Below, in pieces: positions 3,945 to 55,290 of a stretch of DNA of 64,000 nucleotides. Where the stretch lies: contig JBAZKE010000004.1 of NCBI GenBank assembly GCA_041650915.1, forward strand, positions 36,179 to 100,178. Direction: 5' to 3'. The notes below the pieces were generated by a model. It did no database searches. It saw nothing but the letters and a program-made list of their open reading frames with translations, and was not told the origin of the DNA. Positions within the stretch are counted from its first letter, which is position 1; every line of letters starts with the position of its first letter. This stretch comes from Patescibacteria group bacterium (lineage in GTDB: Bacteria; Patescibacteriota; Patescibacteriia; UBA10025; JAHIVO01). The translations under genes and the position numbers were made by a program.

Positions 3945-3973
3945 TTGACAAGTCCTAACTTCCACCTTACACT
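3945..3973 (+). promoter_or_regulatory. sigma70-type promoter TTGACA-N17-TACACT driving TnpB-like copy 1
   Basis: consensus -35 and near-consensus -10 with 17-nt spacer; the same architecture is conserved upstream of copy 2. Confidence 0.5.
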
Positions 3974-3999
3974 GTAGTTGAAGGAGACAGCTCTGTCAA

Positions 4000-10323: not shown

Positions 10324-11133
10324 TTATGGCTTACTTTCTGGCCAACCTTTCAGCCGCAGCAGTTTACTCTCGATCGATGCGCCATCTACGTAGCGGTAAT
10401 ACTCGTCATCGTATCCATAACCACGGAGCGGTTTGCCGTTGTCTTTCCGATCGTCGGCGTCTCTGCGGCTGATCTCGTCGTGCCAGGACCAGAGAAACCC
10501 GTTAAGATAACGTGTTCTGGGCTGGCATACCAATGCGGTTTTGGCCAACCGAAAAAGGTCTTTTTCAGCCCATACGTGTCGATAGCCGCACAAAAGTTCT
10601 AGAACAGCGGCCTTCTCTTTGGGTGTTAGATTGACTTCATTGTTTTCTGTTACTAAGCCAAACAAAGGATTGAAAACAAGATGGCGATCCTCGTAGTGCA
10701 GGACAAAAGTACCCCAACACGGCACCAGCGACTTCAGTAGACACTCCACCTGATAAAAGACGGTGTGGTTCTCCTGCTCGCGAAATTGTAACCTGTATAC
10801 ACATTCCGCTACCGCGTCCACACTTTTGCTGCGTAAAATTTTGTATTCCGCGCCCTTTTTAGCTACTTCGGCTTTGGCCTCTGCCGCCTCGCGCAACTCC
10901 TGTGCACGGGCCTCCCGTCGTTTCTCGGCGTTGGTTTTCTTGACGGTGTACTCGATGCCGGCAGGCAGCAGCACCCGCAGGGCATTGTCTTGGGCATCGA
11001 ATACAAATCGGCCCGGTTCGTCCTGGGCCAACCGCTGCAGCACGGCCTTGGGGAACACACGGCCATAGTGATCGGGCTGGTCGGCCTTCCACAGCACGGC
11101 CGTCGTGACTCTGGCTTGCTCGTTGTGTGTCAT
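10324..11133 (-). CDS. hypothetical protein
   Basis: 269-aa ORF preceded by promoter TTGACA-N17-TAGAAT ending 6 nt before the ATG. Confidence 0.5.
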   Translation of the reverse strand: MTHNEQARVTTAVLWKADQPDHYGRVFPKAVLQRLAQDEPGRFVFDAQDNALRVLLPAGIEYTVKKTNAEKRREARAQELREAAEAKAEVAKKGAEYKILRSKSVDAVAECVYRLQFREQENHTVFYQVECLLKSLVPCWGTFVLHYEDRHLVFNPLFGLVTENNEVNLTPKEKAAVLELLCGYRHVWAEKDLFRLAKTALVCQPRTRYLNGFLWSWHDEISRRDADDRKDNGKPLRGYGYDDEYYRYVDGASIESKLLRLKGWPESKP

Positions 11134-11139
11134 GGCATC

Positions 11140-11168
11140 ATTCTACTCGGCAGAGCCGCGGTTGTCAA
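11140..11168 (-). promoter_or_regulatory. sigma70 promoter TTGACA-N17-TAGAAT, near-leaderless
   Basis: read on the minus strand; the -10 ends 6 nt before the ATG at 11133. Confidence 0.45.
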
Positions 11169-15680: not shown

Positions 15681-15709
15681 TTGACAATCTTCGACTTTCA
15701 CCTTACACT
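15681..15709 (+). promoter_or_regulatory. sigma70-type promoter TTGACA-N17-TACACT driving TnpB-like copy 2
   Basis: same architecture and flanking sequence as 3945..3973. Confidence 0.5.
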
Positions 15710-15735
15710 GTAGTTGAAGGGAATCGATCTGTCAA

Positions 15736-27171: not shown

Positions 27172-27366
27172 GTTGATTCCTTATTCCGTTCCAGCGTTTT
27201 GCAGTATAACTCCATGTTGGCGCGGTCGCGTCGAGCTTCCTGCCGGCCATAACCGAGCCATACACCGTAGCCCATGGCCAGGCCCGCGAGATTTCAATCC
27301 ACACATCATTACAGCTATAAGCCACAAAGGCGATGCGTACCGATGTGGTTTTACTGTGCGGTCAGG

Positions 27367-27765
27367 TCATGCATCACCCACATTTTCTGTAGCGATCGCG
27401 CAGTCGCAATCCGCACTATTCGGCTCCTTCGGCCAGTTCGGCAGTCTGCACCACCACGCAATACCCGCCTGCGGAACAGTCGTGTAGCCGCACCAAGTAT
27501 CGCCTTTTTCTGTTGGTATTGCGGGTATACGGTCATTCAACTGGTCAGTCAAGGGTATATAGCGGCCTGGGATTTGCCCATGCGGCGTCATGCCGGAAAT
27601 GTCAATTTGTTTTGGTGCGGCTGTGCAGCGAGCACAGGTGATATGCCAAGCTCCAATGATCCAGAGACGCCAGAGTTTCACGCCAGTAACGCCGCATTCA
27701 GCACAACGGTAATCTGGTGCCACGGCATCAGAATTGTAATCAGTTTTGAGATTTTTCACGCCCAC
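27367..27765 (-). CDS. hypothetical zinc-ribbon protein
   Basis: CAECG...CARC. Confidence 0.4.
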   Translation of the reverse strand: MGVKNLKTDYNSDAVAPDYRCAECGVTGVKLWRLWIIGAWHITCARCTAAPKQIDISGMTPHGQIPGRYIPLTDQLNDRIPAIPTEKGDTWCGYTTVPQAGIAWWCRLPNWPKEPNSADCDCAIATENVGDA

Positions 27766-30471: not shown

Positions 30472-31596
30472 TCAGGGACTCCAGCTCCTGAGCAATCGTA
30501 AAGTACGTTCGAGTATATTCTCTGCACCTACGACATCACTGTCGTTGCTGTAACCACACGAAGTGCAGAGAAAATTCTCTCCCTTACGATTGTCACGATG
30601 CACCGCATTACACTTGGGACATGTCTGTGAGGAGTAAGCAGGGTTGATCTTAACCAAGAAAATACCATTTTCTTGGGAGATTTGTTCCAATCTGCCGACA
30701 ACCTGACGATATGTCCACGATGCACGAGTACGTCTAAACGCTCTAGACTGATTCTTTCGCTTGCCTTGCTTTAATCCTCTGAGGTCTTCAACCCCAATGG
30801 TTTTAATGGTTTTCCAATCAAATGCGTTTCTAACTACAGTAGAGACAAAATTATCTCTTCGTCTCTGTGCTCTTTTTCTACCCTTGCTGCCAGGCTTTTT
30901 CCTATTTATGCTTGCCATCATGGCTTTCATCTCTGTGCCATGAAGTTGTGCTTCAATACCATCCGTAGTAACGATTAATTTATTGATACCAATGTCACAA
31001 CCTACTACACGACCTTCCTGTCGATATTCTGGAATAGGCAGAGAAACTCTAACGATCAAAACATCTTCATTTATTTTTCCACCTGGAATTAATTTTGCTC
31101 CGGGCTTTTCCAACCAATAATTTAATCTTTCAGTGCTTTTAGTCGGAAGCGCAATTTTGTTGCCACGATCAAGTGTAGACAACTCAACGATCAAATCGAA
31201 TAGATTACTCGTTGTATTGTCCAGTACATTCAACACTTTAGCGTCAAACTCGCACATTCCTGTGAATTTAGGGCAAGTCGGTTTGGCGCCCAATGCTTCC
31301 GCAGAAGCGATAGTCGAGGTAATGATTTCAATGGCTTGCTTCAATGCAGCGTTTTTAAACCTAGCAGACAAATGTTGGATTTGACATTTACCATAAGTTT
31401 GCTTTTTAAGACCGACGTCGATGAGGTCTCGATTGTTCCATACTAAATTAATGTAAAAATTGACAGCGCTTCTGTAGCGAGAAAGAAGCGCTTTCAGCTT
31501 GTTTCGTTTCTTTTCCGTGATGAACTTCAAAGAAATGACACAAGAACGTGTCATCAACGTTTGCTGTTCCTGAAGTTGTTTCTTAGTCTTGTACAT
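30472..31596 (-). CDS. tnpB: TnpB (IS200/IS605-family OrfB, RuvC-like RNA-guided nuclease), no tnpA adjacent
   Basis: GCDIGINK (RuvC-I D), IGVEDL (RuvC-II E), INPAYSSQTCPKCN...CTSCGYSNDSDVVGAENI (zinc finger plus RuvC-III D); 374 aa; AT-rich. Confidence 0.8.
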   Translation of the reverse strand: MYKTKKQLQEQQTLMTRSCVISLKFITEKKRNKLKALLSRYRSAVNFYINLVWNNRDLIDVGLKKQTYGKCQIQHLSARFKNAALKQAIEIITSTIASAEALGAKPTCPKFTGMCEFDAKVLNVLDNTTSNLFDLIVELSTLDRGNKIALPTKSTERLNYWLEKPGAKLIPGGKINEDVLIVRVSLPIPEYRQEGRVVGCDIGINKLIVTTDGIEAQLHGTEMKAMMASINRKKPGSKGRKRAQRRRDNFVSTVVRNAFDWKTIKTIGVEDLRGLKQGKRKNQSRAFRRTRASWTYRQVVGRLEQISQENGIFLVKINPAYSSQTCPKCNAVHRDNRKGENFLCTSCGYSNDSDVVGAENILERTLRLLRSWSP

Positions 31597-37657: not shown

Positions 37658-38015
37658 CTATGGCGGTAAGGCAGGCATTGGTGTTGCCCACCAGCCTGCC
37701 GTTTACCTTTTCTACCACGCCTAAACCTACGCTGTCGAGACTCACGGCCCAATCGGGATGGGCGGGCGGCGCGAAATCGATAAGGCCGTTCGTAGCGATT
37801 CTACACTTAACCACTTCCTTTTTCCAAATGCCCGACCGATTTGGTATGTGAAGGTAGTAATGCCTCCAATAATATTGACCATCAACCAGCTCGGTCAGAC
37901 TCACCGTTACCTTGCGCTCGTCTTCAGTGCTATTAGGCAGATAGCACACAGCGTTACACGGAATCGGAATCATCATGGGCATCATTTCTCCCTGACCTCG
38001 CCGGCTTCGATCCAC
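37614..38015 (-). CDS. hypothetical protein
   Basis: 133-aa ORF. Confidence 0.4.
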   Translation of the reverse strand: MDRSRRGQGEMMPMMIPIPCNAVCYLPNSTEDERKVTVSLTELVDGQYYWRHYYLHIPNRSGIWKKEVVKCRIATNGLIDFAPPAHPDWAVSLDSVGLGVVEKVNGRLVGNTNACLTAIDDLDAAFSDRGGWS

Positions 38016-38036
38016 ACACCCTGCTGGCCCGATTCG
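38005..38036 (-). repeat. degenerate CRISPR repeat (canonical 32-nt I-C type); shares the 13-mer GATCCACACACCC with the mini-array unit at 48530
   Basis: GCTTCGATCCACACACCC versus GTTTTGATCCACACACCC. Confidence 0.45.
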
Positions 38037-38060
38037 TCATTCACGACGGTCCAGATCTGG

Positions 38061-38093
38061 TTTCAATCCACTCACCTTCGTGAAGGTGAGACG
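38061..38093 (-). repeat. solitary hairpin-retaining CRISPR repeat unit
   Basis: GTTTCAATCCACTCACCTTCGTGAAGGTGAGAC: first 12 nt identical to the array repeat; stem TCACCTTC/GAAGGTGA maintained by compensatory changes relative to GCGCCTTC/GAAGGCAC. Confidence 0.6.
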
Positions 38094-38247
38094 TCAACTA
38101 CCTTCGTGGTTTTACGCGCAGGAAGGCTTTATTCTGCGCAACGGCGTACCAACTGTGCTGTTGTCAACACCACGAACGCGGTTCGTTTGTGTTAGTGTTA
38201 CTGTAGCAGATGGTCGGGGAGGCGTCAACAGAAATCGTTCAGAAGGG

Positions 38248-40934: not shown

Positions 40935-41729
40935 GTGCATTCCTCCCCGGTTCCCCAGCCCACTGTCGGTCAGCATTGTTTTTACTACCGCGTCGTCGAC
41001 ACAGCAACGGGCAAACCCGCGACATACTTCACGCAAGAACGTCTGGCCATGCTGACGGGTCGGTTGCGCCACGGCGTGGGTCGGGCGTTTGTAGCCGCAG
41101 GCACCAATGACGACTGGGTGCAGAGTTACGTACACGGTCACGGCGTAGATTGGTGTGATCAGCGTCTATCCTACGTAGGATTTCCTGACGTGCAGCGTGG
41201 CGGTGGCGCTTTCGGTCTCCGCGTCGATTGCGCTGCTGTCGTATTGCCGGCCGGAGATGCCAGAGCACTACAGCATCTCCAAGCTGCTGGCCGCCTTGAT
41301 TGCGAAGCCTATGCAGCATCCAATGCTGTCTCGTTCATTCCGACCGAACAACCTGATTTTTGTCGCGTGTTTAACACACCAGCACGCACCTGGACCACAG
41401 TCACACCGGTCGCGCACTTCGGATCTCTCTTCACTGCGGATTGGAAATCTTCGGAATTTCTTACTGGATTGGCTTCCAGCGCGCTGGCACAGATTGATCA
41501 TGATGAGGCAGCGATTGCACGTGTACAGGTCAGGTCGACGCCGTTCTATTCCAGCGTGCTCGACGACATGCTTGGCATTCCGGCCAATCAGTATTTCATT
41601 CCCGTGCACATGCGGGGCAAGTTCTCATTTGCCCACGTGCGAATTGAATTCGACCGCGATGTCACGGGACCTGTACTCATGGGATTGGGACAATTCCGTG
41701 GATTTGGGCTGTTCGCGGGAGGTGTATAA
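40935..41729 (+). CDS. hypothetical protein with C-terminal glycine-rich loop (possible RAMP/Cas5-Cas6-like fold)
   Basis: C-terminus ...VLMGLGQFRGFGLFAGGV resembles the RAMP G-rich loop; no other motif recognised. Confidence 0.3.
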   Translation: MHSSPVPQPTVGQHCFYYRVVDTATGKPATYFTQERLAMLTGRLRHGVGRAFVAAGTNDDWVQSYVHGHGVDWCDQRLSYVGFPDVQRGGGAFGLRVDCAAVVLPAGDARALQHLQAAGRLDCEAYAASNAVSFIPTEQPDFCRVFNTPARTWTTVTPVAHFGSLFTADWKSSEFLTGLASSALAQIDHDEAAIARVQVRSTPFYSSVLDDMLGIPANQYFIPVHMRGKFSFAHVRIEFDRDVTGPVLMGLGQFRGFGLFAGGV

Positions 41730-46158: not shown

Positions 46159-48240
46159 GTTTCAATCCACGTGCCTTCACAAGGAAGGCACGACCGGTCA
46201 ACCTTAGACCCGCAACCCTGGTGACGGTCCAGTTTCAATCCACGTGCCTTCACAAGGAAGGCACGACCTGCCAATCCCGGAGGTTGCAAAACCGCCATGG
46301 CCATGTTTCAATCCACGTGCCTTCACAAGGAAGGCGCGACCCGGCTTGTCGTCTGGCAAATACCATGTCGTGATGCCATTTCAATCCACGTACCTTCTCG
46401 ACAGAAGGCACGACGAATCAGTGAGACCGATATCACTAATACCTCTGAATTATTTCAATCCACGTACCTTCTCGACAGAAGGCACGACGCGCAAGTCGGG
46501 AGCTTGTTTACCCGGCGTAGGACTTATTTCAATCCACGTACCTTCTCGACAGAAGGTACGACCGGGGTTATTTCGTGACCTTCCTCGCCAGCTGGGATGT
46601 ATTTCAACCCACGCGCCTTCTACCAAGAAGGCACGACCTGGATACAATTATCGAGCGCTGCGCGGATGTCCGTTGGTTTCAATCCACGCGCCTTCTACCA
46701 AGAAGGCACGACGACCCATGGGTCAATCGAGATCACTGAAGCGACCTGGTTTCAATCCACGCGCCTTCTACCAAGAAGGCACGACCGAAAGCCGAAGTTG
46801 CCTTGGCCAAGCAATTCGTGGTTTCAATCCACGCGCCTTCTACCAAGAAGGCACGACCCGCTGGATTTTTCTGGGCCCAACCGGTCCATCCTCGTTTCAA
46901 TCCACGCGCCTTCTACCAAGAAGGCACGACTCAAGCCTCGATACGCAAGGTGGTTCCTGCGGCGCCTCGTTTCAATCCACGCGCCTTCTACCAAGAAGGC
47001 ACGACCGATGCCCTGGGTTGATGGCCTCGATATGGTTAACCAGTTTCAATCCACGCGCCTTCTACCAAGAAGGCACGACCTGACACGGCACGGGCTGCAG
47101 CACGATGCTGACGCCGTTTCAATCCACGCGCCTTCTACCAAGAAGGCACGACATGGGAGTCCAAGTAAATGCAACCCGTCAACCCACCGTTTCAATCCAC
47201 GCGCCTTCACAAGGAAGGCACGACATCCTTACCGGTGCGGTGCGGATACCCTCGGTTGGCGTTTCAATCCACGCGCCTTCACAAGGAAGGCACGATCCTC
47301 GGACAGGCTGTCACGGGTCGAGAGTGAATCGTGGTTTCAATCCACGCGCCTTCACAAGGAAGGCACGACCAACTCGCCTTCGAGCAACGCGAGGCCCACG
47401 TCATTGTTTCAATCCACGCGCCTTCACAAGGAAGGCACGACCTCGACAATGAGTTGCACCCCGATGCGCAGCGCCTCACGTTTCAATCCACGCGCCTTCA
47501 CAAGGAAGGCACGACCCGACATAATGACGGGCCCCATCGGTCGCGATGCTGTTTCAATCCACGCGCCTTCACAAGGAAGGCACGACCAGCCTGGGTATAG
47601 GCGTAGGTAGAGATTCGTTCACCGTTTCAATCCACGCGCCTTCACAAGGAAGGCACGACGCGCATTTGTGAGCTTTTCCATGGCAGTCATCGCGTTTCAA
47701 TCCACGCGCCTTCACAAGGAAGGCACGACTCTGGCGAAACTCCCCATATCCGACCCGTCCATCACGGTTTCAATCCACGCGCCTTCACAAGGAAGGCACG
47801 ACCAATCTGTCGTGACCAAGGCTTCGTTGCTCTGCAGATGTTTCAATCCACGCGCCTTCACAAGGAAGGCACGACCTACCAGAACCGATTTACCTGCCCG
47901 CGTTGGACCCCTGTTTCAATCCACGCGCCTTCACAAGGAAGGCACGACAAACACGTTTGGTCCAGGTCCTGCAATACCCAGGTGTATGTTTCAATCCACG
48001 CGCCTTCACAAGGAAGGCACGACGACCTGGCCGAGGATATCCGGGAGCACGGTCAGGTTGTTTCAATCCACGCGCCTTCACAAGGAAGGCACGACAAGCT
48101 CGTTCTCCTGGACTCGCAGCGCACCTAGTTTGTTTCAATCCACGCGCCTTCACAAGGAAGGCACGACAGCGACCGATTAGAAACCCTTTACTCAGGAGAT
48201 AGATGTTTCAATCCACGCGCCTTCACAAGGAAGGCACGAC
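46159..48240 (-). CRISPR. CRISPR array: 29 repeats (36-37 nt), 28 spacers (35-38 nt), transcribed on the minus strand, leader at the high-coordinate end
   Basis: Plus-strand consensus is GTTTCAATCCACGCGCCTTCACAAGGAAGGCACGAC; on the minus strand it reads GTCGTGCCTTCCTTGTGAAGGCGCGTGGATTGAAAC, ending in the ATTGAAAC handle. Repeat subtypes occur in blocks: repeats 1-3 CGTGCC/ACAAG, 4-6 CGTACC/TCGACA (37 nt), 7-14 CGCGCC/TACCAA (37 nt), 15-29 CGCGCC/ACAAG. Degeneration increases toward 46159. Confidence 0.95.
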
Positions 48241-48262
48241 TGCTCGCTAAAATTCACTAGCA

Positions 48263-48291
48263 ATTCTACGCCGTTGTGCACCGGTTTGCGA
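48263..48291 (-). promoter_or_regulatory. candidate leader promoter TCGCAA-N17-TAGAAT for the main array
   Basis: best sigma70-like match in the roughly 210-bp leader; weak -35. Confidence 0.25.
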
Positions 48292-48450
48292 GCACTGCCA
48301 GATGAATTGGTGTTTTTGACTCTGGGCGCGCTTCTGAGCTTCATTACTGTCGGCCCAAGCCATTGATTTTGTTCTCCTGGTGTTCGCGCGAGCGGGTCCG
48401 GGGTTTTCGACGCCACCGAGCCGCTCGCGAGTTGTTTCAGTACAGCCGCA

Positions 48451-48625
48451 CTGTTTTGATCCACGCGCCTGTCGCGCTCCACGCGTTCGAGGCGCGGCGG
48501 AAGATGATATCATACCTGCATACCGCCTGGGGTTTTGATCCACACACCCGCAAGGGTGCGACGGCTACCAACGAGGCCATGAAACTGCTCGACATGTTTC
48601 AATCCGCGCACCCGTGAAAGGTGCG
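48451..48625 (-). CRISPR. decayed mini-array of canonical 32-nt type I-C repeats (3 units) between cas7 and the main-array leader
   Basis: Unit 3 GTTTCAATCCGCGCACCCGTGAAAGGTGCGAC reads on the minus strand as GTCGCACCTTTCACGGGTGCGCGGATTGAAAC, the classic I-C repeat form. Unit 2 is GTTTTGATCCACACACCCGCAAGGGTGCGAC. Unit 1 is disrupted. One 33-nt spacer-like segment lies between units 2 and 3. Confidence 0.6.
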
Positions 48626-48809
48626 ACTGCCCGGTCTCAACCAAGCAGCAATCATTGGCATTTTCGGCGCAGTTCCGCGAACCCAAGGAACAGAGCGCCG
48701 ACATCGTGTTGTATTCAGTTACCAATGTGCAGACCACCAAGCAATTCAGCAACTTACTGTTCCGCGAACCTCCAGGCTTTTACTGAGCGCTGGAGGTTCG
48801 CGCAACCCC

Positions 48810-49802
48810 CTACTTCGAGTTGATGAGTGCCCATCCGCCAGCCAGCCAGTCGCAGTGCTCGACGTTGGCCGGCAGACCCTCGGTGTTAACCGCCAGGGTG
48901 TAGTCCGTGATTTCCCGGACCGCCGTGACTTCCGGCTTCCGCGTCGCCGTAACTCGCTGCATCAGACTGGACCGCGACGCATTGCCCAGTGGGCTCATGT
49001 GCTTGAACGCGTGGAACGCGTGGAGGCAGCGCACGCCCGACGATGCCGTCATGGAGTCCCAGCAACCTACGAATGCTCGGACGAATAGATCTAGGTCGGC
49101 CTGGGTGAATCCCGTCTTGGCTGCCCATGCCGGCGCCACCGTGCCCTCGATGCGGTACAGCCCGAAAGGTACGATGAATTTTTTGCCCATCGTCCGGTTC
49201 GCTGCGGCGCTGTCCTCCGCAGTTTCGTTCTCCCCGCCTGCTTTGTCCTTGCGATTCGTCGCGCACATCCGCGTGATCGTCATGGGCAGGATCTCAATGG
49301 GGTCCACGGATAGCGCCGTGCAGATTTGCACCGGACCCGTAACTTTGCCCCCGCCCGACTTGCCCTTGGCCTTTTTGCCCTTGGCCTTGCCCTTCTTGCT
49401 TGTAGGCGTACCCGCCTCAGTCTCGGGCGCTTCAGGCTCGTCCTCTTTTGCATCGCCGCCGACCATCACGGCGCCAAACGTGCGTACGTCCCAGAACTTA
49501 CGCAGCAGTGCTTGCTGAAGGGTGTCATTCTCCGGCTTTACCGTTTTCTGAACCTCGGCGTTGACTTCTGCGAGCACAGCGCCATCGGTGTAATAGATAT
49601 TGTTTTCCTGCGTGCCTGTAGCTGCGGCGTAATCCTGCACATAATTGCGAATCTTGCGCTTTACGCAGACATCAGACATGATCCCCCTGCCTGTGGTGTA
49701 GTCAGTTCGGGGTTGGTTATCTGCATCGGGGTCACCGTTGGGATTTCCTCGGGCGACAGAAACAAACGCTACAAAATCATACCGGTTCGCGATCGTGGTC
49801 AT
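48810..49802 (-). CDS. cas7: Cas7 (Csd2, type I-C)
   Basis: N-terminal RYDFVAFVSVARGNPNGDPDADNQPRTDYTTGRGIMSDVCVKRKIRNYV matches the Csd2/DevR signature; AAGGAGA SD. Confidence 0.8.
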   Translation of the reverse strand: MTTIANRYDFVAFVSVARGNPNGDPDADNQPRTDYTTGRGIMSDVCVKRKIRNYVQDYAAATGTQENNIYYTDGAVLAEVNAEVQKTVKPENDTLQQALLRKFWDVRTFGAVMVGGDAKEDEPEAPETEAGTPTSKKGKAKGKKAKGKSGGGKVTGPVQICTALSVDPIEILPMTITRMCATNRKDKAGGENETAEDSAAANRTMGKKFIVPFGLYRIEGTVAPAWAAKTGFTQADLDLFVRAFVGCWDSMTASSGVRCLHAFHAFKHMSPLGNASRSSLMQRVTATRKPEVTAVREITDYTLAVNTEGLPANVEHCDWLAGGWALINSK

Positions 49803-49803
49803 T

Positions 49804-49983
49804 TCGTTCTCCTTTATTTCACTAGGCCAAGGGTTGCGCGCAGCGCGGTGGTTTCCAGGTGCTCCTGCTGCGCAATTTGCCGCACCGTTTGGGTGGCGTC
49901 TTGGGTCGTTAGCATCAGGACGGCCAGCGGCGATAGTTTGATTACTACTTGAGCGCTACAACGGTTGTTACTTTTGCTCCACA
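49804..49983 (-). CDS. small ORF (about 57 aa) in the 190-nt cas8c-cas7 gap
   Basis: ATG..TAA ORF below the track cutoff; function unknown. Confidence 0.2.
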
Positions 49984-49990
49984 TCGGTGT

Positions 49991-51835
49991 TTACTCCTCT
50001 GCGTCTGCCTCCTTTTTGGTTTGCATTCGCGACGCAATGTTAGCGTTGAATTGCTGGCGTTGGTGCTCGACGCCGAGAATGAAGTTTTCGCGTGCAGTTA
50101 GATCTGCATGCAGCGGCAGCGCATTATCCCGCGTAATTTCCGCGTTCACCTCCGTCAAAATCTCAAGATAGTGGTCAACCAAGTGCCCCGAGTTCTGGTG
50201 CGCTTCCCGCTGTACGTGACCATTGATTTCTGTTACTAGCTTCACCCATGCGTTGCGCTGTGCAGTGGCTGCCTGCTGGAAAGCGTTGGCCAGCCAGGCG
50301 CTGCGACGCAGTTCGGCCTGCACGACGTTCATCCCAGTTTTACCTCGGTACTGGCAGTACTTTACTTGTTCCAGTATAGCGAACGCTCTCCCCCACAGAT
50401 AGGATGGGTTTTTATTCTCTAGCTCCAGCATGCTCGATACCTCCTGTGCATCAGTTCGGTTTCTGCCGAGTTTGACCAATTTAGCCAATAGGCTGAAACG
50501 CGTGTTTCCTGCTCTCCGGTCGTTGCGCACGTAAATCATTGATGCAGCCAAAGTCGCTGCGTTACGCATACCCACGGGCAATGGAAGTCCTTGGAGCGCG
50601 CAATTCCAAAGGCTCTCTTTGTACCTAGCCATCTGGGCATCGATCTTGGTTCGGTCCACTTTACGTCGGTCGGCCATAGCACGCGTAAGCTCGTACACTG
50701 TGGGCAGCCAGGTCATTTTGCCGTCACCCATGGCGAGGTCATTTCGGTATTTTCGCACGTTACCGATGACTTCTGCGACAGTGCTCGTGTATTGTTTGAC
50801 CATGGCGCGCTTCATATTGGCCGATAGACTCACCAGGAAAAATGGCGAATAGTTTTTGGTGTCTAGATCCGTGTGCTGTGCTGCGTTGGTCAGGTCATGG
50901 CGAAGTTCTTTGCCCCGCACATGATCTAGCTGGCTGTAGTCCTCCGGAGTTGCCTCGGTTTCTTCTTCCGCATTTTCAAGCTCTAGCTGCTGAATAGTGG
51001 TTTGTACCCTGCGTAGGGTTTCCAAATCGCCATCGAGCCAATAGTACATCCGGCTCGTGTCTAGCGAAATGAAGAAACGATTCTCTGCTAGATACGCGAA
51101 CGTTGCTCGGTATTGCGCAATACCCTCAGGCGACATCGGCGCTGCGGCCCCGCGGGCTCCACCATAGCGGAGCAAGTGAGGTAAGTTATACGACACCAGG
51201 GATGCAGACGCCAGTTTGCCGTCAGCTCCTGGCATCACAACGGAGTCGTGTAACTCCTGCGGAGCATCCGTGAACTCCCCCGTGAGAACGCAGCGTACGG
51301 CTTGCTTACACTCAGGCCGGTTAGCCACGCGCCAGGCATCGAAGTAAGGCACAAGCTCCGCTTGCTCGTGCACATACTGTCCGTCGACGATAAATGCAAT
51401 CATGGGTGCGATTTTCCAAGCCAACGCACCCTCTTGCTCCAGCCGAGGGCGCTGTTGTTCCCAGCCGGCATAAAACTTGGCTACAGCTTGGGCACCGACG
51501 TTATTAGAGGCTTCGGCGAAGTAGTTTACCAAATCTACGAACAGACCGAAACACTCGGCAGCACGGTCTTTTTTATCTTCTTTTTCCCACAAACCCAACA
51601 CGTATGTAGCGTTGTCGCAGAAAGGGTTTGCTCGAGCGTTGCGTGTGCGCGGCCCGGGCAGTTTGGGCACTTGCGTGAAGGGGCGTTCGTCACCTTTTAG
51701 CGCGTAGGTTTCGGTGCGTAGTAGATTGCCTCCAGCGTCAAGGACCAAGGCATACCCCAGCGACATAGTTTCGTATCCGGGTCTATTTCCTAGTCCGCGC
51801 TGTACGGCGAATTTAGTGGCTGCGCGTAGGAACAT
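49991..51835 (-). CDS. cas8c: Cas8c (Csd1, type I-C large subunit)
   Basis: 614 aa; N-terminal ...GNRPGYETMSLGYALVLDAGGNLL... resembles Csd1; position between cas5 and cas7; start overlaps cas5 stop (TAATG). Confidence 0.65.
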   Translation of the reverse strand: MFLRAATKFAVQRGLGNRPGYETMSLGYALVLDAGGNLLRTETYALKGDERPFTQVPKLPGPRTRNARANPFCDNATYVLGLWEKEDKKDRAAECFGLFVDLVNYFAEASNNVGAQAVAKFYAGWEQQRPRLEQEGALAWKIAPMIAFIVDGQYVHEQAELVPYFDAWRVANRPECKQAVRCVLTGEFTDAPQELHDSVVMPGADGKLASASLVSYNLPHLLRYGGARGAAAPMSPEGIAQYRATFAYLAENRFFISLDTSRMYYWLDGDLETLRRVQTTIQQLELENAEEETEATPEDYSQLDHVRGKELRHDLTNAAQHTDLDTKNYSPFFLVSLSANMKRAMVKQYTSTVAEVIGNVRKYRNDLAMGDGKMTWLPTVYELTRAMADRRKVDRTKIDAQMARYKESLWNCALQGLPLPVGMRNAATLAASMIYVRNDRRAGNTRFSLLAKLVKLGRNRTDAQEVSSMLELENKNPSYLWGRAFAILEQVKYCQYRGKTGMNVVQAELRRSAWLANAFQQAATAQRNAWVKLVTEINGHVQREAHQNSGHLVDHYLEILTEVNAEITRDNALPLHADLTARENFILGVEHQRQQFNANIASRMQTKKEADAEE

Positions 51836-52506
51836 TATTGCACCGTTCCATAGTGGGTGGCGATAGCGGCTTCGCGCGGTGGAATGTTCAGGACTCCATT
51901 CTCCATGATGGCGTTGTAATACAGCGACACTTTTGGGGACACTTCGTAGTGAAAGTCGTAAAACATGTACCCGAGATCTACTGAAACTGGTAACGCCGTT
52001 TCGCTTTCGAAGTCTGCCGGGGCAACATCTGCGGGGAACTCGCGTCTCCCAAAATAGGGTGCGTGGTGGTATTGTCCGAGGTCTAGACGTCGTGTCAGCA
52101 TGGCCTCGTACTTGGTGAGATTGGCGTCTTCTGTCGGTTTAACAGTTAGGTGCATGACGAATTCTACTAGATAAGCGACGTCACGCAAAATTAGCTGGGC
52201 CATTTGTGTACGAGCTTGCGTAACATCAATTGTAGGTTTATCTTTCGTTGCGGCTTCTTTGATTCCATTGGTGCGAAATCGTACTAGCCTGATGGGTTTT
52301 AGTACTTTGAGCCTGAGCGGCTGGATCCGTACCTCTGGATGCCAAAATACACTCTCGAGCATACCACGAAGCGCGGAAGGCGTAGGCACCTCATAAGATA
52401 CACCTTCGATGCGGAACTCAGGTCGGACGAAGTTTGCGAAGTTGCCTGAAAATTTCACACAAAATGGTTTGCCGGTTTGGCCCACGAAAAAGGGTTTGCC
52501 TGTCAT
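51835..52506 (-). CDS. cas5: Cas5d (type I-C Cas5, pre-crRNA endonuclease)
   Basis: FANFVRPEFRIEGVSYEVPTPSALRGMLESVFWHPE matches the Cas5d N-terminal signature; 223 aa. Confidence 0.75.
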   Translation of the reverse strand: MTGKPFFVGQTGKPFCVKFSGNFANFVRPEFRIEGVSYEVPTPSALRGMLESVFWHPEVRIQPLRLKVLKPIRLVRFRTNGIKEAATKDKPTIDVTQARTQMAQLILRDVAYLVEFVMHLTVKPTEDANLTKYEAMLTRRLDLGQYHHAPYFGRREFPADVAPADFESETALPVSVDLGYMFYDFHYEVSPKVSLYYNAIMENGVLNIPPREAAIATHYGTVQ

Positions 52507-52636
52507 GCTGCGGTTCTCCTGCTGGTTCAGAACGGCGTTTTCTGCCGTGCATGTTCCCCACTGTAGCGGGATTCAGTGCTGCTGTCTAGGAAAATCGTCG
52601 CCGGGGCCTAAATTTTTTGAGGTGGGTGCAGGCGGG

Positions 52637-55006
52637 TTAGACGATAAGAGGCTGAAGTTGCAGGGATTGCTCGTTTAACTGGCGTACTTGTACACCATAC
52701 CGCGGGTCATACTGAAGCGCGGTAGGGTTCACCAGGAGCAGCGTCGCAGTGTCGACTTTCTTGACCTCGCCCTTGGTATCGTCACCCGCATCGTCTGCAA
52801 AGATCTCATCGTCCAGATTGAGCATGCGGATTAAACCGGCGTCCAGCCATTTGGCCAGACAAGTTTTTGCGATGTTTACGGTGTAGGTCCGCAGTGTACG
52901 ATAAGCTGCCCACGGGCGGTTCCCGCGCTCAATGTTTCTAACGGCTTCAGCACAGATTTCATCTTGAACTATGACGACTGGCGCCGACCAATCGCTCTCG
53001 ATCATCCTGAATTTTTCGCTCACAGTCTGAAAATTAAGTTTTCTACGCTCGGCTTGAATTTCGTCGCCCTGGGCAAGCTTTCGTGTTACGCGCCTATACC
53101 ATTTTTCCCAGTACTCTCGCTGCACCTGGGGATTAAATATATCGAAATCTTCTCCTCTGTTTCGTCGGTTCGTCCGCATTTCCCAAACTGTGGTGATGGC
53201 GGCTTCCAAGCCGTAGTCCATGATATTTTTCGTAGGCGACGCATATAATTTAAGCCTAGCCGCAGCCAAGCGTCCTTCACGGTTCACGCGCCCGGCGAAC
53301 TGAATGATGGAGTCCAGGCCGGCGATCGGTGCAAAACCAAGTGGAAAATCGAAATCGATTCCGGCTTCCACCAGACTCGTTGTTACAAGATGAATTAGTT
53401 TTTTATTTCTAAGTTTGTTCCGTACGTCTGCAATGACCCTAGACCGGTCCATAGGAGTCAGTAGAGCCGACAGTGCTATGATCTCTGCCCCTGTCCTTCG
53501 CGCGTCCAATTCTTCACACAGCGCCTGCACGTCGTCGCGCAACACTACTTTTGTAATGCTAGACACAGTTGAGGCTGTGATTTCGTTCACTAGTTCTGGC
53601 CAAGTGGTGGGCACAAATTCATCTGGCCACTCAACCGCCACACGCGGCGGTATCGTTATTTCGCCAGGTGCAACGATTTGATTTATTGACTTGAATCCGT
53701 ATGCGGTTTTAAGCACAACATTTCCGGGTCCGCGCATGCGGTTCATGACGGCGCGCACACGCTCCTGCCCTTCGAAATCCCATACTGGCACTGTAGCCGT
53801 AGAAATCAATAACGACACACCAAAGTGTTTCACCAGCGTATCCAAAATGTTAAGTACAGGAAATAGCACGTGTGCTGGAATCGTTTGCGCCTCGTCAATG
53901 AACACTACTGTGTTAGCGATGTTGTGGTTTTTACGGCTTTTGCGCACCTTACGCGCCAGTAAAGACTCGAAAAATTGAACCGTAGTCGACACGAGTATCG
54001 GGGCAGCCCAATTGTTAGTAATGAGCATGTCTCTGAATGTAAAGCGCCGGTCACTGCTGTTTTTCTCTGGATCGTACCCAGAATGATGCTCAATGACGTT
54101 ATTTGGTCCAACTGCCCCGCTAATTGCTGCAACCGTTTGCTCGATCAGTGCCTCGAACGGCTGCAAGATGATTATTTTGGATTTGTTGTATTTGATCGCA
54201 TGCAGAATAGCCCATTCAAGGCCCGAAAGTGTTTTGCCAAGCCCCGTTGGTACGTTCAGATAGTGAATTCCAGGAGGAAGCAAGGCAGCCACTCTGCATC
54301 TTTCTCGAACTAGAGCACGTTGTGTGTTTATAAAGGAAGGCTGTGCAGCGTTTTGCAACGCGTCGATCGTGTTTTCTAGTCTTTGACTGATAACAGGTAA
54401 AGAATCGAAGCCTGCTGCGCGCAGCCGCTCGCGTCCAGGCGTTTCTGCATTTTCGGCATCCAGAGCGTCTGCATCGCAAAGGGAAGAAAACAGCATGCGG
54501 AAGAATAGCTCGACAGTATAGATGTCTTTGCGCTGCTCTTGGCTTAATTGCTCCAGAGCGGGAAGTGTTTTAAGCTGCGCGTCCAGCCAAAGAAAACGAT
54601 CGGCTATTGGAATGTTTCTCAGCTCGTCGAGTTCTACCCTGCCCCAATCGATCGATCGGTTCCCTTCGGCATTCATATCCCGCATACCCGAATGGTGGTG
54701 CAGAACGGAGAACCAAACGGCAACGTGTTCTGGTCCTTGCTTGATGATCTGGGCCGCAATTTGTTTAAGATAATGGGCTGCGCTTTCCTTCGCGTGATAC
54801 GTGGTCATTGGGGCTTGCCCGAGTAGATATTGCTGCCAGGGGAGTACGCGCTTCTCGACGTCATGTACCAGGCCAGCCAGTAGGCCCAGATTGCCCAGCC
54901 CAAACGCCGTACAGTATTCTGAGCAGCGTCGGGCCACGCCCGCCAAGTGGTCGACTAAAAGTTGCTGGGCTCCAGCTTCCGAAACTCGGGCAAGCGGCTC
55001 AGTCAT
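52637..55006 (-). CDS. cas3: Cas3 (HD nuclease plus SF2 helicase)
   Basis: N-terminal HD-like LVHDVEK; DEAQ box (VVFIDEAQTIP); 789 aa; first gene of the operon. Confidence 0.75.
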   Translation of the reverse strand: MTEPLARVSEAGAQQLLVDHLAGVARRCSEYCTAFGLGNLGLLAGLVHDVEKRVLPWQQYLLGQAPMTTYHAKESAAHYLKQIAAQIIKQGPEHVAVWFSVLHHHSGMRDMNAEGNRSIDWGRVELDELRNIPIADRFLWLDAQLKTLPALEQLSQEQRKDIYTVELFFRMLFSSLCDADALDAENAETPGRERLRAAGFDSLPVISQRLENTIDALQNAAQPSFINTQRALVRERCRVAALLPPGIHYLNVPTGLGKTLSGLEWAILHAIKYNKSKIIILQPFEALIEQTVAAISGAVGPNNVIEHHSGYDPEKNSSDRRFTFRDMLITNNWAAPILVSTTVQFFESLLARKVRKSRKNHNIANTVVFIDEAQTIPAHVLFPVLNILDTLVKHFGVSLLISTATVPVWDFEGQERVRAVMNRMRGPGNVVLKTAYGFKSINQIVAPGEITIPPRVAVEWPDEFVPTTWPELVNEITASTVSSITKVVLRDDVQALCEELDARRTGAEIIALSALLTPMDRSRVIADVRNKLRNKKLIHLVTTSLVEAGIDFDFPLGFAPIAGLDSIIQFAGRVNREGRLAAARLKLYASPTKNIMDYGLEAAITTVWEMRTNRRNRGEDFDIFNPQVQREYWEKWYRRVTRKLAQGDEIQAERRKLNFQTVSEKFRMIESDWSAPVVIVQDEICAEAVRNIERGNRPWAAYRTLRTYTVNIAKTCLAKWLDAGLIRMLNLDDEIFADDAGDDTKGEVKKVDTATLLLVNPTALQYDPRYGVQVRQLNEQSLQLQPLIV

Positions 55007-55012
55007 GTAGAG

Positions 55013-55040
55013 AAAATAGCAGAAATGACGAGATTGTCAA
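55013..55040 (-). promoter_or_regulatory. cas operon promoter TTGACA-N16-TATTTT ending 6 nt before the cas3 ATG
   Basis: the -35 lies within the palindrome GTCAAGT-N8-ACTTGAC, which also supplies the -35 of the divergent plus-strand promoter. Confidence 0.45.
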
Positions 55041-55053
55041 GTACAGATTTCAC

Positions 55054-55113
55054 TTGACAGCGAGGATTAGACCGCTATACTGGTGGATAGCAAGGAGGTG
55101 TTGCATGCTTTGA
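55054..55113 (+). promoter_or_regulatory. divergent promoter TTGACA-N16-TATACT, then consensus SD AAGGAGGTG and two-codon mini-ORF ATG CTT TGA
   Basis: near-consensus elements read directly: SD at 55092..55100, ATG at 55105, stop at 55111. Confidence 0.45.
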
Positions 55114-55137
55114 CCAATTAAGTGCCGTAGCGGTACG

Positions 55138-55176
55138 CGTCGTCGCCATGGCTCTGGCTTTAATGACGTGTGGGTT
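55138..55176 (+). repeat. possible degenerate CRISPR-repeat-like element in crRNA orientation
   Basis: CGTCGTCGCC...GACGTGTGGGTTGAAAC versus GTCGTGCC...GCGCGTGGATTGAAAC; about one 10/11 match to the handle is expected by chance in this window, so this is weak. Confidence 0.2.
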
Positions 55177-55200
55177 GAAACTACTCCGCACAACTGACAT

Positions 55201-55290
55201 CAATCGAGAGTTTTAGCAAGTTCTCGGGTGTGCTGGTCTGTTAGATCTTCATCCGATTCTACATAGCGGATGTGTTCAATCTCATGCAGT
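55201..55290 (-). pseudogene. 3' fragment of an ImmA/IrrE-like gene (partial duplicate of 55293..55763)
   Basis: minus-strand translation VLHEIEHIRYVESDEDLTDQHTRELAKTLD* parallels VLHEIEHIRYVETDEDITDRNAKALARRLG of the intact gene; about 75% nt identity over 50 nt. Confidence 0.45.

What the first reader, a model, noticed from the sequence alone, without database searches (positions are those of the whole stretch)
48451..48625. Decayed canonical 32-nt I-C mini-array wedged between cas7 and the main-array leader: relic of the ancestral array or a CreA/CreR-like regulatory RNA
The sequence shows three repeat-like units. Unit 3, read on the minus strand, is GTCGCACCTTTCACGGGTGCGCGGATTGAAAC, the textbook 32-nt type I-C repeat. 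This shows the cas genes once served a standard array. The 36-nt repeats now in use are a derived form. The mini-array sits exactly where cas4-cas1-cas2 plus the leader would normally be, which supports deletion of the adaptation module. Degenerate mini-CRISPRs inside cas loci have been shown to act as antitoxin or autoregulatory RNAs (CreA and CreR), guiding Cascade by partial complementarity. A transcript reading through from the cas operon would include this element.
Basis: partly seen in the sequence, partly recalled or inferred. Interest (0 to 1): 0.6.

Follow-up and report, generated by a model that had tools for sequence, protein, structure and literature searches.

The report
Self-regulating mini-CRISPR behind cas7
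A three-repeat mini-CRISPR sits between cas7 and the main array of a type I-C system that has no adaptation genes, and its last unit probably makes a guide-like RNA that sends Cascade to the promoter of the Cascade genes; this kind of feedback is known, here in a subtype and genome context where it is less documented.

Summary
On the minus strand, 48627-48453 is a regular mini-array: repeat (32 nt), spacer (33), repeat (31), spacer (33), repeat (46 nt, with an expanded loop). Unit 3 is the best match in the window to an I-C repeat model built mostly from unrelated I-C arrays (43 bits, E 1e-9).

Neither 33-nt spacer has a TTC-flanked seed match anywhere in about 84 kb.

The sequence right after unit 1 does have one. 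AGTGCGGCTGT (48452-48442) matches TTC-AGTGCTGCTGT at 52572-52585 in 10 of 11 positions, with the mismatch at position 6. That site overlaps the -35 box and spacer of the only sigma70-like promoter between cas3 and cas5 (TAGACA-17-TACAGT). The chance of such a hit in a cas intergenic region is about 4e-5 per candidate. Promoter and site are conserved in the only diverged relative found. A non-repeat hairpin follows after about 21 nt, as in validated Neisseria I-C crRNA-like RNAs.

Best reading: a CreR-like autorepressor of cas5-cas8-cas7 (confidence 0.6). No RNA data exist, and no complete relative allows a covariation test.

Loss of cas4-cas1-cas2 is not recent, because relatives with 48-57% identical Cas7 also lack them. 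A second repeat-like RNA gene, divergent from cas3, matches a distant promoter.

Novelty: new member of a known kind.

The parts
48596..48627 (-). Unit 3, the first repeat in the direction of transcription. Canonical 32-nt I-C repeat GTCGCACCTTTCACGGGTGCGCGGATTGAAAC: a 7-bp hairpin followed by the 11-nt tail CGGAUUGAAAC.
   Evidence: Model R1 gives 43.4 bits, E 1e-9. Fold. It is 28/32 identical to an unrelated I-C repeat.
48563..48595 (-). Spacer S1, 33 nt: ATGTCGAGCAGTTTCATGGCCTCGTTGGTAGCC. No target found.
   Evidence: no TTC-flanked seed of 7 or more positions in the window or in L102/L103/L104. No exact match to its first 24 nt in the viral contigs.
48532..48562 (-). Unit 2, a 31-nt repeat: GTCGCACCCTTGCGGGTGTGTGGATCAAAAC. 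The hairpin is intact. The tail UGGAUCAAAAC differs from the main-array tail at two adjacent positions.
   Evidence: Model R1 gives 20.2 bits, E 0.004. Fold.
48499..48531 (-). Spacer S2, 33 nt: CCCAGGCGGTATGCAGGTATGATATCATCTTCC. No target found. It contains a weak promoter-like -10 (TATGAT, 8/12 overall).
48453..48498 (-). Unit 1, the proposed psi-repeat of the regulator. It is a 46-nt repeat: GCCGCGCC, then a loop expanded to about 19 nt by an 18-nt internal duplication, then GGCGCG and the tail TGGATCAAAAC. The 7-bp stem ends exactly 11 nt before the 3' end.
   Evidence: D2 duplication; model alignment; fold. 15 of its last 17 nt are identical to the main repeat.
48432..48452 (-). Psi-spacer of the proposed CreR-like RNA: AGTGCGGCTGTACTGAAACAA. 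The seed is 48452-48442.
   Evidence: the only TTC-flanked hit with 10/10 seed positions in the window. Statistics.
48387..48429 (-). Non-repeat 3' hairpin after the psi-spacer (17-nt arms, 9-nt loop). The loop would fall about 49-58 nt from the predicted 5' end.
   Evidence: I2; folds. The architecture matches validated I-C crRNA-like RNAs of 48-50 nt that end in the loop of a 3' hairpin.
52572..52585 (+). Predicted target: PAM TTC (52572-52574) and protospacer AGTGCTGCTGT (52575-52585). It matches the psi-spacer in 10 of 11 positions, with the mismatch at position 6.
   Evidence: The block is conserved in L081 as TTC-AGTACTGCTGT.
52560..52588 (-). Pcas5, the only sigma70-like promoter in the cas3-cas5 intergenic region: TAGACA-17-TACAGT. 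The target covers the last 3 nt of the -35 box and 11 nt of the spacer.
   Evidence: L081 has TGGACA-17-TATCAT at the same place.
48810..52506 (-). The Cascade genes under Pcas5: cas5c 51835-52506, cas8c 49991-51835, cas7c 48810-49802.
   Evidence: NCBIfam hits TIGR01876, TIGR01863 and TIGR02589.
52637..55006 (-). cas3 (HD nuclease plus helicase). It has its own promoter, TTGACA-16-TATTTT at 55040-55013, which ends 6 nt before the ATG.
48759..48806 (-). 17-bp inverted repeat (94% complementary) starting 3 nt after the cas7 stop codon, built on the motif CGCGAACC/GGTTCGCG. There is no U-tract. A further copy of GGTTCGCGGAAC lies at 48683-48672.
   Evidence: (I1, D4). The motif and the surrounding non-coding block are conserved in L081 and L085.
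48247..48363 (-). 38-codon ORF with a strong ribosome-binding site (AGGAGAA, 8 nt upstream of the ATG), lying between the 3' hairpin and the first main repeat. Function unknown.
   Evidence: Read. Called as a gene in L083 and L084. Too short for the homology search.
46159..48240 (-). Main CRISPR array: 29 repeats of 36-37 nt in four sequence variants and 28 spacers of 34-39 nt. A weak promoter, TCGCAA-17-TAGAAT, lies at 48291-48263.
55054..55204 (+). Second candidate crRNA-like RNA gene, divergent from cas3. It comprises the promoter TTGACA-16-TATACT (55054-55081), a long-hairpin psi-repeat ending GTGTGGGTTGAAAC (55142-55181), and the psi-spacer TACTCCGCACAAC... followed by a small hairpin.
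   Evidence: (18.7 bits, E 0.01).
11140..11168 (-). Promoter TTGACA-17-TAGAAT of an operon of genes with no known relatives (first gene 10324-11133). TTC (11141-11143) plus TACTCGGCA (11144-11152, + strand) overlaps its -10 box and matches the second psi-spacer at 8 of 8 seed positions, with the mismatch at position 6.

Best explanation
The element is a degenerate three-repeat mini-CRISPR that lies at the 3' end of the Cascade operon and is probably transcribed with it.

Proposed mechanism:
1. Cas5c cuts at the base of each repeat hairpin.
2. The cut in unit 1 releases a crRNA-like RNA. It has an 11-nt 5' handle (UGGAUCAAAAC), about 21 nt of guide, and a non-repeat 3' hairpin.
3. Loaded into Cascade, the first 11 nt of the guide pair with a TTC-flanked site. 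The site overlaps the -35 box and spacer of Pcas5, the promoter of cas5c-cas8c-cas7c.
4. Pairing stops after 11 nt, so Cas3 is not licensed to cut. Cascade simply occludes the promoter.
5. The result is CreR-type negative feedback on Cascade synthesis. It would be relieved when the 28 crRNAs of the main array, or an anti-CRISPR, draw Cascade away.

Shown by sequence and computation: the repeats, their hairpin-plus-handle geometry, the match with its PAM, the promoter prediction, and the conservation of the target block.

Inferred only: transcription, Cas5c processing, Cascade loading, repression, and the absence of cleavage.

Units 3 and 2, with their two 33-nt spacers, are best seen as the remaining canonical part of the array from which unit 1 was co-opted. 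They may still yield ordinary crRNAs against unknown targets.
For: 1. The match. Among 9 candidate guide starts, only the one after unit 1 has a TTC-flanked hit with all 10 scored seed positions. The single mismatch is at position 6, which does not pair in type I complexes.
2. The location. The hit lies in the 130-bp cas3-cas5 spacer, on the -35 box and spacer of the one promoter that the scan finds there.
3. The odds. Random 11-mers drawn from the window give such a hit anywhere in 0.46% of trials, and in a cas intergenic region in 0.004%.
4. Conservation. In the only diverged relative (Cas7 57% and Cas5 56% identical), the promoter hexamers, their 17-nt spacing, the TTC and 10 of 11 protospacer bases are kept. 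The rest of the intergenic region has diverged.
5. Processing signals. All three units keep a hairpin that ends 11 nt before the repeat end. Unit 1 keeps 15 of the 17 3'-terminal nt of the main repeat.
6. Architecture. It matches experimentally validated I-C crRNA-like RNAs: a psi-repeat hairpin with an 11-nt handle, a partial match with a mismatch at position 6, a TTC PAM next to the -35 box, and a 3' end in the loop of a non-repeat hairpin at 48-50 nt. Mini-arrays that repress effector promoters are established for I-B, I-E, I-F and V-A, and were predicted for I-C.
7. A second pair. Another psi-repeat/guide pair in the window also hits a core promoter next to a TTC. Two of six candidates doing so, against 0.0016 expected per candidate, argues for a real regulatory use of Cascade here.
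Against: - There is no expression or processing data.
- Only 11 nt pair, at the low end of reported cases (10-16 nt).
- Unit 1 is the weakest of the three repeats by the model (E 0.05 window-wide). Its handle differs from the main one at two positions, so loading is not assured.
- The guide seed can fold into a 6-bp local hairpin.
- The promoter is a consensus prediction (9/12).
- Conservation of the target block in L081 could partly reflect promoter constraint alone.
- The relative's contig ends 160 nt after cas7, so I could not test whether guide and target co-vary.
- No strong promoter was found upstream of the mini-array, so its expression rests on assumed read-through past a 17-bp hairpin.
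- Units 3 and 2 have no detectable target.
Confidence: 0.6

Rival explanations
1. Neutral relic. The three units are the decaying remainder of an ancestral canonical I-C array, left when the lineage lost adaptation. The 11-nt match to Pcas5 is coincidence.
For: Repeat quality declines along the array: 43, 20 and 16 bits. Unit 1 carries an internal duplication. Neither 33-nt spacer has a target. There is no adaptation module to maintain an array. No relatives are available to show conservation of the mini-array itself.
Against: All three units keep the hairpin-plus-11-nt geometry despite sequence change. A PAM-flanked match in exact register, on the effector promoter, has a chance of about 4e-5 per candidate. 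The target block is conserved in a diverged relative. A second pair of the same kind exists in the window.
Confidence: 0.2
2. Still an ordinary small CRISPR. Units 3 to 1 express two normal crRNAs (S1 and S2) for interference against foreign DNA, independently of any regulation.
For: The layout is regular: repeats of canonical size with 33-nt spacers. Unit 3 is a perfect I-C repeat and unit 2 has an intact hairpin. cas3 has both HD and helicase domains.
Against: No protospacer was found for S1 in the viral contigs or in any fetched sequence. This reading does not explain the match after unit 1. It is compatible with the best explanation rather than opposed to it.
Confidence: 0.1
3. RNA anti-CRISPR or hijacking RNA. 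If the contig is a phage or another mobile element, the canonical-type repeats (units 3 and 2, and the orphan at 38 kb) mimic the repeats of a host I-C system. They would either sequester its Cas proteins (Racr) or direct them onto host promoters (Cracr).
For: The window looks like a mobile element. Almost every ORF lacks a Pfam or PHROG match. The few hits are an endolysin-type amidase, NADAR, R2K ATP-grasp, TnpB, a ribonucleotide reductase and a resolvase. Units 3 and 2 resemble generic I-C repeats more than the element's own 36-nt repeats. RacrIC1 and I-C Cracr arrays with two spacers are documented.
Against: The units sit inside the element's own cas locus, in its transcription direction. 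[quoted passage not shown] The one detectable target is the element's own Pcas5. Host identity and host repeats are unknown.
Confidence: 0.07

Closest known systems
CreR / autoregulatory mini-arrays (Liu et al., bioRxiv 10.1101/2023.03.10.532045; Shmakov et al., bioRxiv 10.1101/2023.03.03.530964)
   Same: A degenerate repeat within the cas locus. A spacer-like sequence with 10 or more nt of seed-proximal partial complementarity, tolerating a mismatch at position 6. A canonical PAM. A target in the promoter of the effector genes. Too little pairing for cleavage.
   Different: Experimental cases are I-B, I-E, I-F1 and V-A; I-C was only predicted. Here the guide follows the third repeat of a three-repeat mini-array, whereas only 12 mini-arrays with three or more repeats were found in the survey. 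The element lies at the 3' end of the Cascade operon, next to the main array, rather than upstream of or divergent from the effector genes. The target is an internal promoter between cas3 and cas5. The locus has no adaptation genes.
Type I-C crRNA-like RNAs (crlRNAs) controlling Nezha, Gabija and other 'CRISIS' defence genes in Neisseria (bioRxiv 10.1101/2024.12.27.630466)
   Same: Same subtype and same RNA architecture: a psi-repeat hairpin cut to leave an 11-nt handle, a TTC PAM, a mismatch at position 6, a target beside the -35 box, and a 3' end in a non-repeat hairpin at about 48-50 nt. The cas3-cas5c interval is the regulatory hot spot.
   Different: Those RNAs repress cargo defence genes inserted between cas3 and cas5c, and pair over 16 bp. 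Here the matched promoter drives the Cascade genes themselves and pairing is 11 bp. The second candidate RNA in this window (55142-55181) is closer to that model, but its target lies 44 kb away and heads genes with no known relatives.
CreTA (CreA antitoxin RNA with CreT toxin)
   Same: A degenerate mini-CRISPR inside a type I cas locus that guides Cascade by partial pairing.
   Different: No toxin promoter is matched. The small ORF next to the element (48363-48247) has no targeted promoter of its own.
Racr / solitary repeat units of viruses (Camara-Wilpert et al. 2023, PMC10651486)
   Same: Repeat mimics on a probable mobile element. Some of the orphan units in this window sit downstream of their own promoters.
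   Different: Racrs act as decoys without needing a target and are not linked to cas genes. Here a cognate Cascade is encoded alongside, and promoter matches exist.

Membership tests
CreR-type autoregulatory mini-array | A repeat-like unit in or next to the cas locus that keeps the part giving the crRNA 5' handle. | tested here: met
   Unit 1 keeps the stem base and the handle. 15 of the 17 3'-terminal nt match the main repeat, and the hairpin ends 11 nt before the repeat end.
CreR-type autoregulatory mini-array | A spacer-like sequence with partial, seed-proximal complementarity (10 nt or more) starting at its first base. | tested here: met
   AGTGCGGCTGT against AGTGCTGCTGT: 10 of 11, mismatch at position 6, exact register.
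CreR-type autoregulatory mini-array | The target is flanked by the subtype's PAM. | tested here: met
   5'-TTC at 52572-52574. TTC is the I-C PAM used in the validated I-C cases. I could not derive this system's own PAM from protospacers.
CreR-type autoregulatory mini-array | The target lies within or next to the promoter of the effector genes. | tested here: met
   It overlaps the -35 box and spacer of TAGACA-17-TACAGT, 54 nt upstream of the cas5 ATG. The promoter is a prediction, conserved in L081.
CreR-type autoregulatory mini-array | Guide and target are co-conserved or co-vary in related loci. | tested here: inconclusive
   The target is conserved in L081, L098 and L099. Every relative's contig ends before the expected mini-array, and no further relatives were found.
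CreR-type autoregulatory mini-array | The RNA is expressed, processed by the Cas endonuclease, and represses the promoter in a Cas-dependent way. | not testable with these tools
   This needs RNA sequencing and reporter assays.
CreTA toxin-antitoxin | An adjacent toxin gene whose promoter is the target of the psi-spacer. | tested here: not met
   The only PAM-flanked match is Pcas5. The neighbouring 38-codon ORF has no matched promoter.
Racr (RNA anti-CRISPR) | A solitary repeat unit on a virus or plasmid, not associated with cognate cas genes. | tested here: not met
   The units lie 183 nt downstream of cas7, in the same orientation.
Canonical type I-C CRISPR-Cas locus | The operon cas3-cas5c-cas8c-cas7c followed by cas4-cas1-cas2 and an array of 32-33-nt repeats. 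| tested here: not met
   The effector genes are present. No cas4/1/2 follow cas7, and none appeared among the window ORFs scanned. The main repeats are 36-37 nt.

The most novel reading that the evidence does not exclude
This contig is probably a large mobile element or phage. It may use an adaptation-less I-C Cascade as a programmable transcription factor, served by several dispersed crRNA-like RNA genes:
- unit 1 of the mini-array, acting on Pcas5 (feedback);
- a promoter-driven RNA divergent from cas3 (55142-55181), acting on the -10 box of a consensus promoter 44 kb away that heads an operon of genes with no known relatives;
- at least two more orphan repeat units, at 38092-38004 (with its own predicted promoter) and 27345-27291, whose targets lie outside the sequence I could see.

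The 28-spacer array would still serve interference.
Probability: 0.3. Interest if true: 0.75.

Novelty: new member of a known kind. Interest (0 to 1): 0.55.

Why it matters
If confirmed, this would be a type I-C case of Cascade repressing its own promoter through a degenerate mini-CRISPR. For I-C that circuit has so far only been predicted.

It would also show a particular layout. The regulator is transcribed as the tail of the operon it represses and sits at the head of the main array. That couples Cascade supply directly to crRNA load.

The locus belongs to a rare, deeply diverged I-C lineage that lacks adaptation genes, on a contig that looks like a mobile element. The several other repeat-like RNA genes, one of which matches a distant promoter, suggest the element may use Cascade for gene control as well as defence.

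The predictions are simple to test with a reporter assay.

Tried and rejected
S1 and S2 were scanned against the whole window and about 20 kb of extra contig, with TTC and relaxed PAMs. Nothing was found at 55007-55113 or elsewhere. The 9-10-nt seeds that lack a PAM are at chance level.
- Search for relatives to test conservation:
  - Cas7 against 185,579 species genomes: best hit 40% identity, only generic I-C loci.
  - Cas7 and Cas5 protein searches: just two diverged lineages, all on contigs that end 43-160 nt after cas7.
  - The 3' half of the main repeat against JGI metagenomes: 12 unrelated single hits and no array.
  - Viral contigs by Cas7 and by a handle-plus-guide pattern: nothing close.
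  - Phage GenBank records: only hits at 35% identity or less.
- L083 and L084 are the same population as the window, with an identical mini-array, so they carry no comparative information.
- Protospacers to derive the PAM. No main-array spacer matches the window or the fetched loci. The first 25 nt of the newest main spacer and the first 24 nt of S1 are absent from the viral contigs.
- Rfam: only a sub-threshold CRISPR-DR hit inside the main array.
- A 'unit 0' ending GTACTGAAAC at 48434 scores only 6.8 bits and was dropped.
- A repeat-like CTGGATCGAAAC right after cas7 in L081 was not supported by the model or by the alignment.
- I considered that the guide-target match reflects an inverted duplication of a repeat-spacer junction. 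It was rejected because similarity does not extend beyond the 11 nt and the flank is not conserved in L081.
- The 269-aa product of the second target operon has no homologue in 5.8 billion proteins and no hit in Pfam or PADLOC.
- The 38-aa ORF is below the minimum length for the homology search.

Full report
**Layout.** The minus strand carries cas3 (52637-55006), cas5c (51835-52506), cas8c (49991-51835) and cas7c (48810-49802), identified by NCBIfam. No cas4, cas1 or cas2 follows. A 29-repeat array of 36-37-nt repeats runs from 48240 to 46159. The finding lies in the 569 nt between cas7 and that array.

Read on the minus strand, the element is a regular mini-array:
- spacer S1, 48595-48563, 33 nt;
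- unit 2, 48562-48532, 31 nt;
- spacer S2, 48531-48499, 33 nt;
- unit 1, 48498-48453, 46 nt.

Unit 1 is a repeat of the form GCCGCGCC...GGCGCG-TGGATCAAAAC. Its loop was enlarged by an 18-nt internal duplication (D2).

To test this independently, I built a covariance model from 33 repeats of unrelated I-C loci plus the four main-array variants and ran it over the window without filters. Unit 3 is the best hit in the window (43.4 bits, E 1e-9), ahead of all main repeats. Unit 2 scores 20.2 bits (E 0.004) and unit 1 scores 16.2 bits (E 0.05). All three fold into a hairpin that ends 11 nt before the repeat end, like the main repeats. In 40 unrelated I-C loci, 35 have repeats of 32-33 nt, so 'canonical size' is right and the 36-37-nt main repeats are the unusual ones.

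Neither S1 nor S2 has a TTC-flanked seed of 7 or more positions. I checked the window, including the region upstream of cas3, and about 20 kb of additional contig. Relaxing the PAM adds nothing convincing.

**The sequence after unit 1 does have a target.** Immediately after the handle of unit 1 comes AGTGCGGCTGT (48452-48442). On the plus strand, 52572-52585 reads TTC-AGTGCTGCTGT. That gives the I-C PAM in exact register and 10 of 11 bases identical, with the mismatch at position 6. Position 6 does not pair in type I complexes, and the same mismatch is seen in validated cases.

The site lies in the 130-nt interval between cas3 and cas5. The promoter scan finds one sigma70-like promoter there, TAGACA-17-TACAGT at 52588-52560. 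The protospacer covers the last three bases of the -35 box and the adjacent spacer, and the PAM lies inside the spacer.

Other promoters in this window fit the same consensus well. Examples are Pcas3 (TTGACA-16-TATTTT) and several sites scoring 10-11 of 12. The prediction is therefore reasonable for this organism.

**Chance.** Of 200,000 random 11-mers drawn from the window, 0.46% have a TTC-flanked hit with all ten scored positions somewhere in the window. Only 0.004% have one in a cas intergenic region. I examined nine candidate guide starts.

**Conservation.** Close relatives are very rare. The window's Cas7 is recorded as coming from a 107.9-kb contig of a metagenome bin labelled Patescibacteria. 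L083 and L084 are the same population, with an identical mini-array. Only two diverged lineages exist among 5.8 billion proteins:
- L081/L082/L098/L099, with Cas7 57% and Cas5 56% identical;
- L085, with Cas7 48% identical.

In L081 the cas3-cas5 interval has diverged except for one block. That block keeps TGGACA-17-TATCAT and TTC-AGTACTGCTGT. The spacer between promoter hexamers is not normally conserved, so this suggests an operator.

I could not run the decisive covariation test. All relatives' contigs stop within 160 nt of cas7, before the expected mini-array.

The 150-160 nt they do contain is a conserved non-coding block shared with the window. It includes the CGCGAACC hairpin at the cas7 stop, TTTGACAAC..AATAG, and GGTTCGCGGAAC. 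None of these lineages has cas4 immediately after cas7. The lack of an adaptation module is therefore old in this clade rather than a recent deletion.

**Architecture compared with known cases.** After about 21 nt of guide comes a strong hairpin that is not repeat-like (48429-48387). Its loop would lie about 49-58 nt from the predicted 5' end.

In Neisseria I-C systems, crRNA-like RNAs were shown to be cut at the base of the psi-repeat hairpin, leaving an 11-nt handle. They end in the loop of a non-repeat 3' hairpin at 48-50 nt, and they pair with a TTC-flanked site beside the -35 box with a mismatch at position 6.

Mini-arrays that repress effector promoters are established for I-B, I-E, I-F1 and V-A and were predicted for I-C. 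Mini-arrays with three or more repeats are rare, with 12 in the survey of Shmakov et al..

**Proposed mechanism.** No consensus promoter and no intrinsic terminator lie between cas7 and the mini-array. The simplest model is that Pcas5 transcribes cas5-cas8-cas7 and reads on through the mini-array. Cas5c then releases the unit-1 RNA, Cascade loaded with it sits on Pcas5, and 11 bp of pairing is too little to license Cas3. This would be CreR-type feedback, relieved when crRNAs or anti-CRISPRs compete for Cascade. Every step after the sequence match is inferred. I put the confidence at about 0.6.

**Rivals.**
- Neutral relic (0.2). It fits the declining repeat quality and the two spacers without targets. 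It does not fit the preserved processing geometry, the PAM-flanked promoter match, or the conserved target.
- Ordinary crRNAs from S1 and S2 (0.1). This remains possible and is compatible with the main model.
- Decoy or hijacking role against a host I-C system, Racr or Cracr (0.07). It gains some plausibility because the contig looks like a mobile element. Nearly all ORFs lack Pfam or PHROG matches, and the few hits are an endolysin-type amidase, NADAR, R2K ATP-grasp, TnpB, ribonucleotide reductase and a resolvase. However, the units sit in the element's own cas operon, and the only visible target is its own promoter.

**Beyond the finding.** The repeat model found further repeat-like units outside the arrays.
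- 55142-55181 on the plus strand (E 0.01) lies 60 nt downstream of a near-consensus promoter, TTGACA-16-TATACT, that is divergent from Pcas3. Its following sequence, TACTCCGCA, matches TTC-TACTCGGCA at 11141-11152, again with the mismatch at position 6. That site overlaps the -10 box of TTGACA-17-TAGAAT, the promoter of an operon of genes with no known relatives.
- A random guide has a TTC-flanked hit of 8 or more seed positions inside a promoter-like core with probability 0.0016. Two of six repeat-adjacent guides do so.
- This unit is homologous to another at 27345-27291. The two share a long hairpin with one compensatory G-C to A-U change, and their sequences diverge right after the handle.
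- A well-formed 33-nt repeat at 38092-38060 (E 1.6e-7) has a degraded partner at 38030-38004 and its own promoter. It has no visible target.

Together these raise the possibility that the element uses Cascade for wider gene control. I give that a probability of about 0.3.

**Verdict.** The CreA variant and a recent deletion of the adaptation genes are not supported. Novelty: new member of a known kind. Interest is moderate (0.55).

Noticed in passing
window 55054-55204 (+) and 11140-11168 (-): A promoter-driven repeat-like RNA gene, divergent from cas3. Its guide start matches a TTC-flanked site on the -10 box of a consensus promoter 44 kb away, heading an operon of genes with no known relatives (first gene 10324-11133). 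The seed match is 8 of 8 scored positions, with the mismatch at position 6.
   Followed up: partly
window 38004-38228 (-): An orphan two-unit mini-array just downstream of an HSP20 gene. It has its own promoter (TTGACG-17-TACAGT, 38228-38200), a perfect 33-nt I-C-type repeat (38092-38060, handle identical to the main array) and a degraded second repeat (38030-38004). An ORF of about 123 aa follows. No target was found. In the relative L081, an HSP20 gene sits directly upstream of cas3.
   Followed up: partly
window 27291-27345 (-), also 27403-27416 (-): A long-hairpin repeat-like unit ending GTGTGGATTGAAAT. It is homologous to the one at 55142-55181, with a compensatory stem change, but is followed by an unrelated sequence. 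A further degenerate handle-like motif (GTGCGGATTGCGAC) lies about 60 nt upstream. No target was found.
   Followed up: partly
window 46159-48240 (-): The main array consists of four blocks of repeat variants: 15, 8, 3 and 3 copies. They differ mainly in the hairpin loop (CTTGT, TTGGTA, TGTCGA) and in stem bases that stay paired. This suggests array fusion or recombination, or compensatory drift. A second assembly of the same population (L083) lacks one old spacer.
   Followed up: partly
window 48247-48363 (-): A 38-codon ORF with a strong ribosome-binding site occupies most of the supposed 'leader' and ends 6 nt before the first main repeat. It was called as a gene in two other assemblies. 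Its function is unknown.
   Followed up: no
window 48672-48683, 48759-48770, 48795-48806; L081 and L085 downstream of cas7: A recurring near-palindromic motif, GGTTCGCGGAAC / CGCGAACC, forms a 17-bp hairpin at the cas7 stop and recurs 87 nt further on. It is conserved with the surrounding non-coding block (TTTGACAAC..AATAG) in relatives whose Cas7 is only 48-57% identical. It could be a protein-binding site or an RNA element.
   Followed up: partly
window 55013-55040 (-), 11140-11168 (-); L081 860-900: Several genes, including cas3 here and in L081, have the -10 box ending only 6 nt before the ATG. Their mRNAs would therefore be leaderless.
   Followed up: no
window 3945-5640 and 15681-17376 (+): Two paralogous 546-aa ORFs with no Pfam or PHROG match. 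Each sits behind the same pair of back-to-back promoters (TTGACA-17-TACACT and TTGACA-17-TACAGT).
   Followed up: no
whole window; L103, L104: The contig is filed at NCBI under a Patescibacteria bin, but it has 53% G+C and almost no recognisable genes. The exceptions are an endolysin-type amidase, NADAR, R2K ATP-grasp, an Rv2179c-like exonuclease, TnpB (30472-31596), a weak Cas_GSU0054-like hit (40935-41729), two radical-SAM proteins, a class II ribonucleotide reductase and a resolvase. It looks more like a large phage or another mobile element. No capsid or terminase gene was identified.
   Followed up: partly
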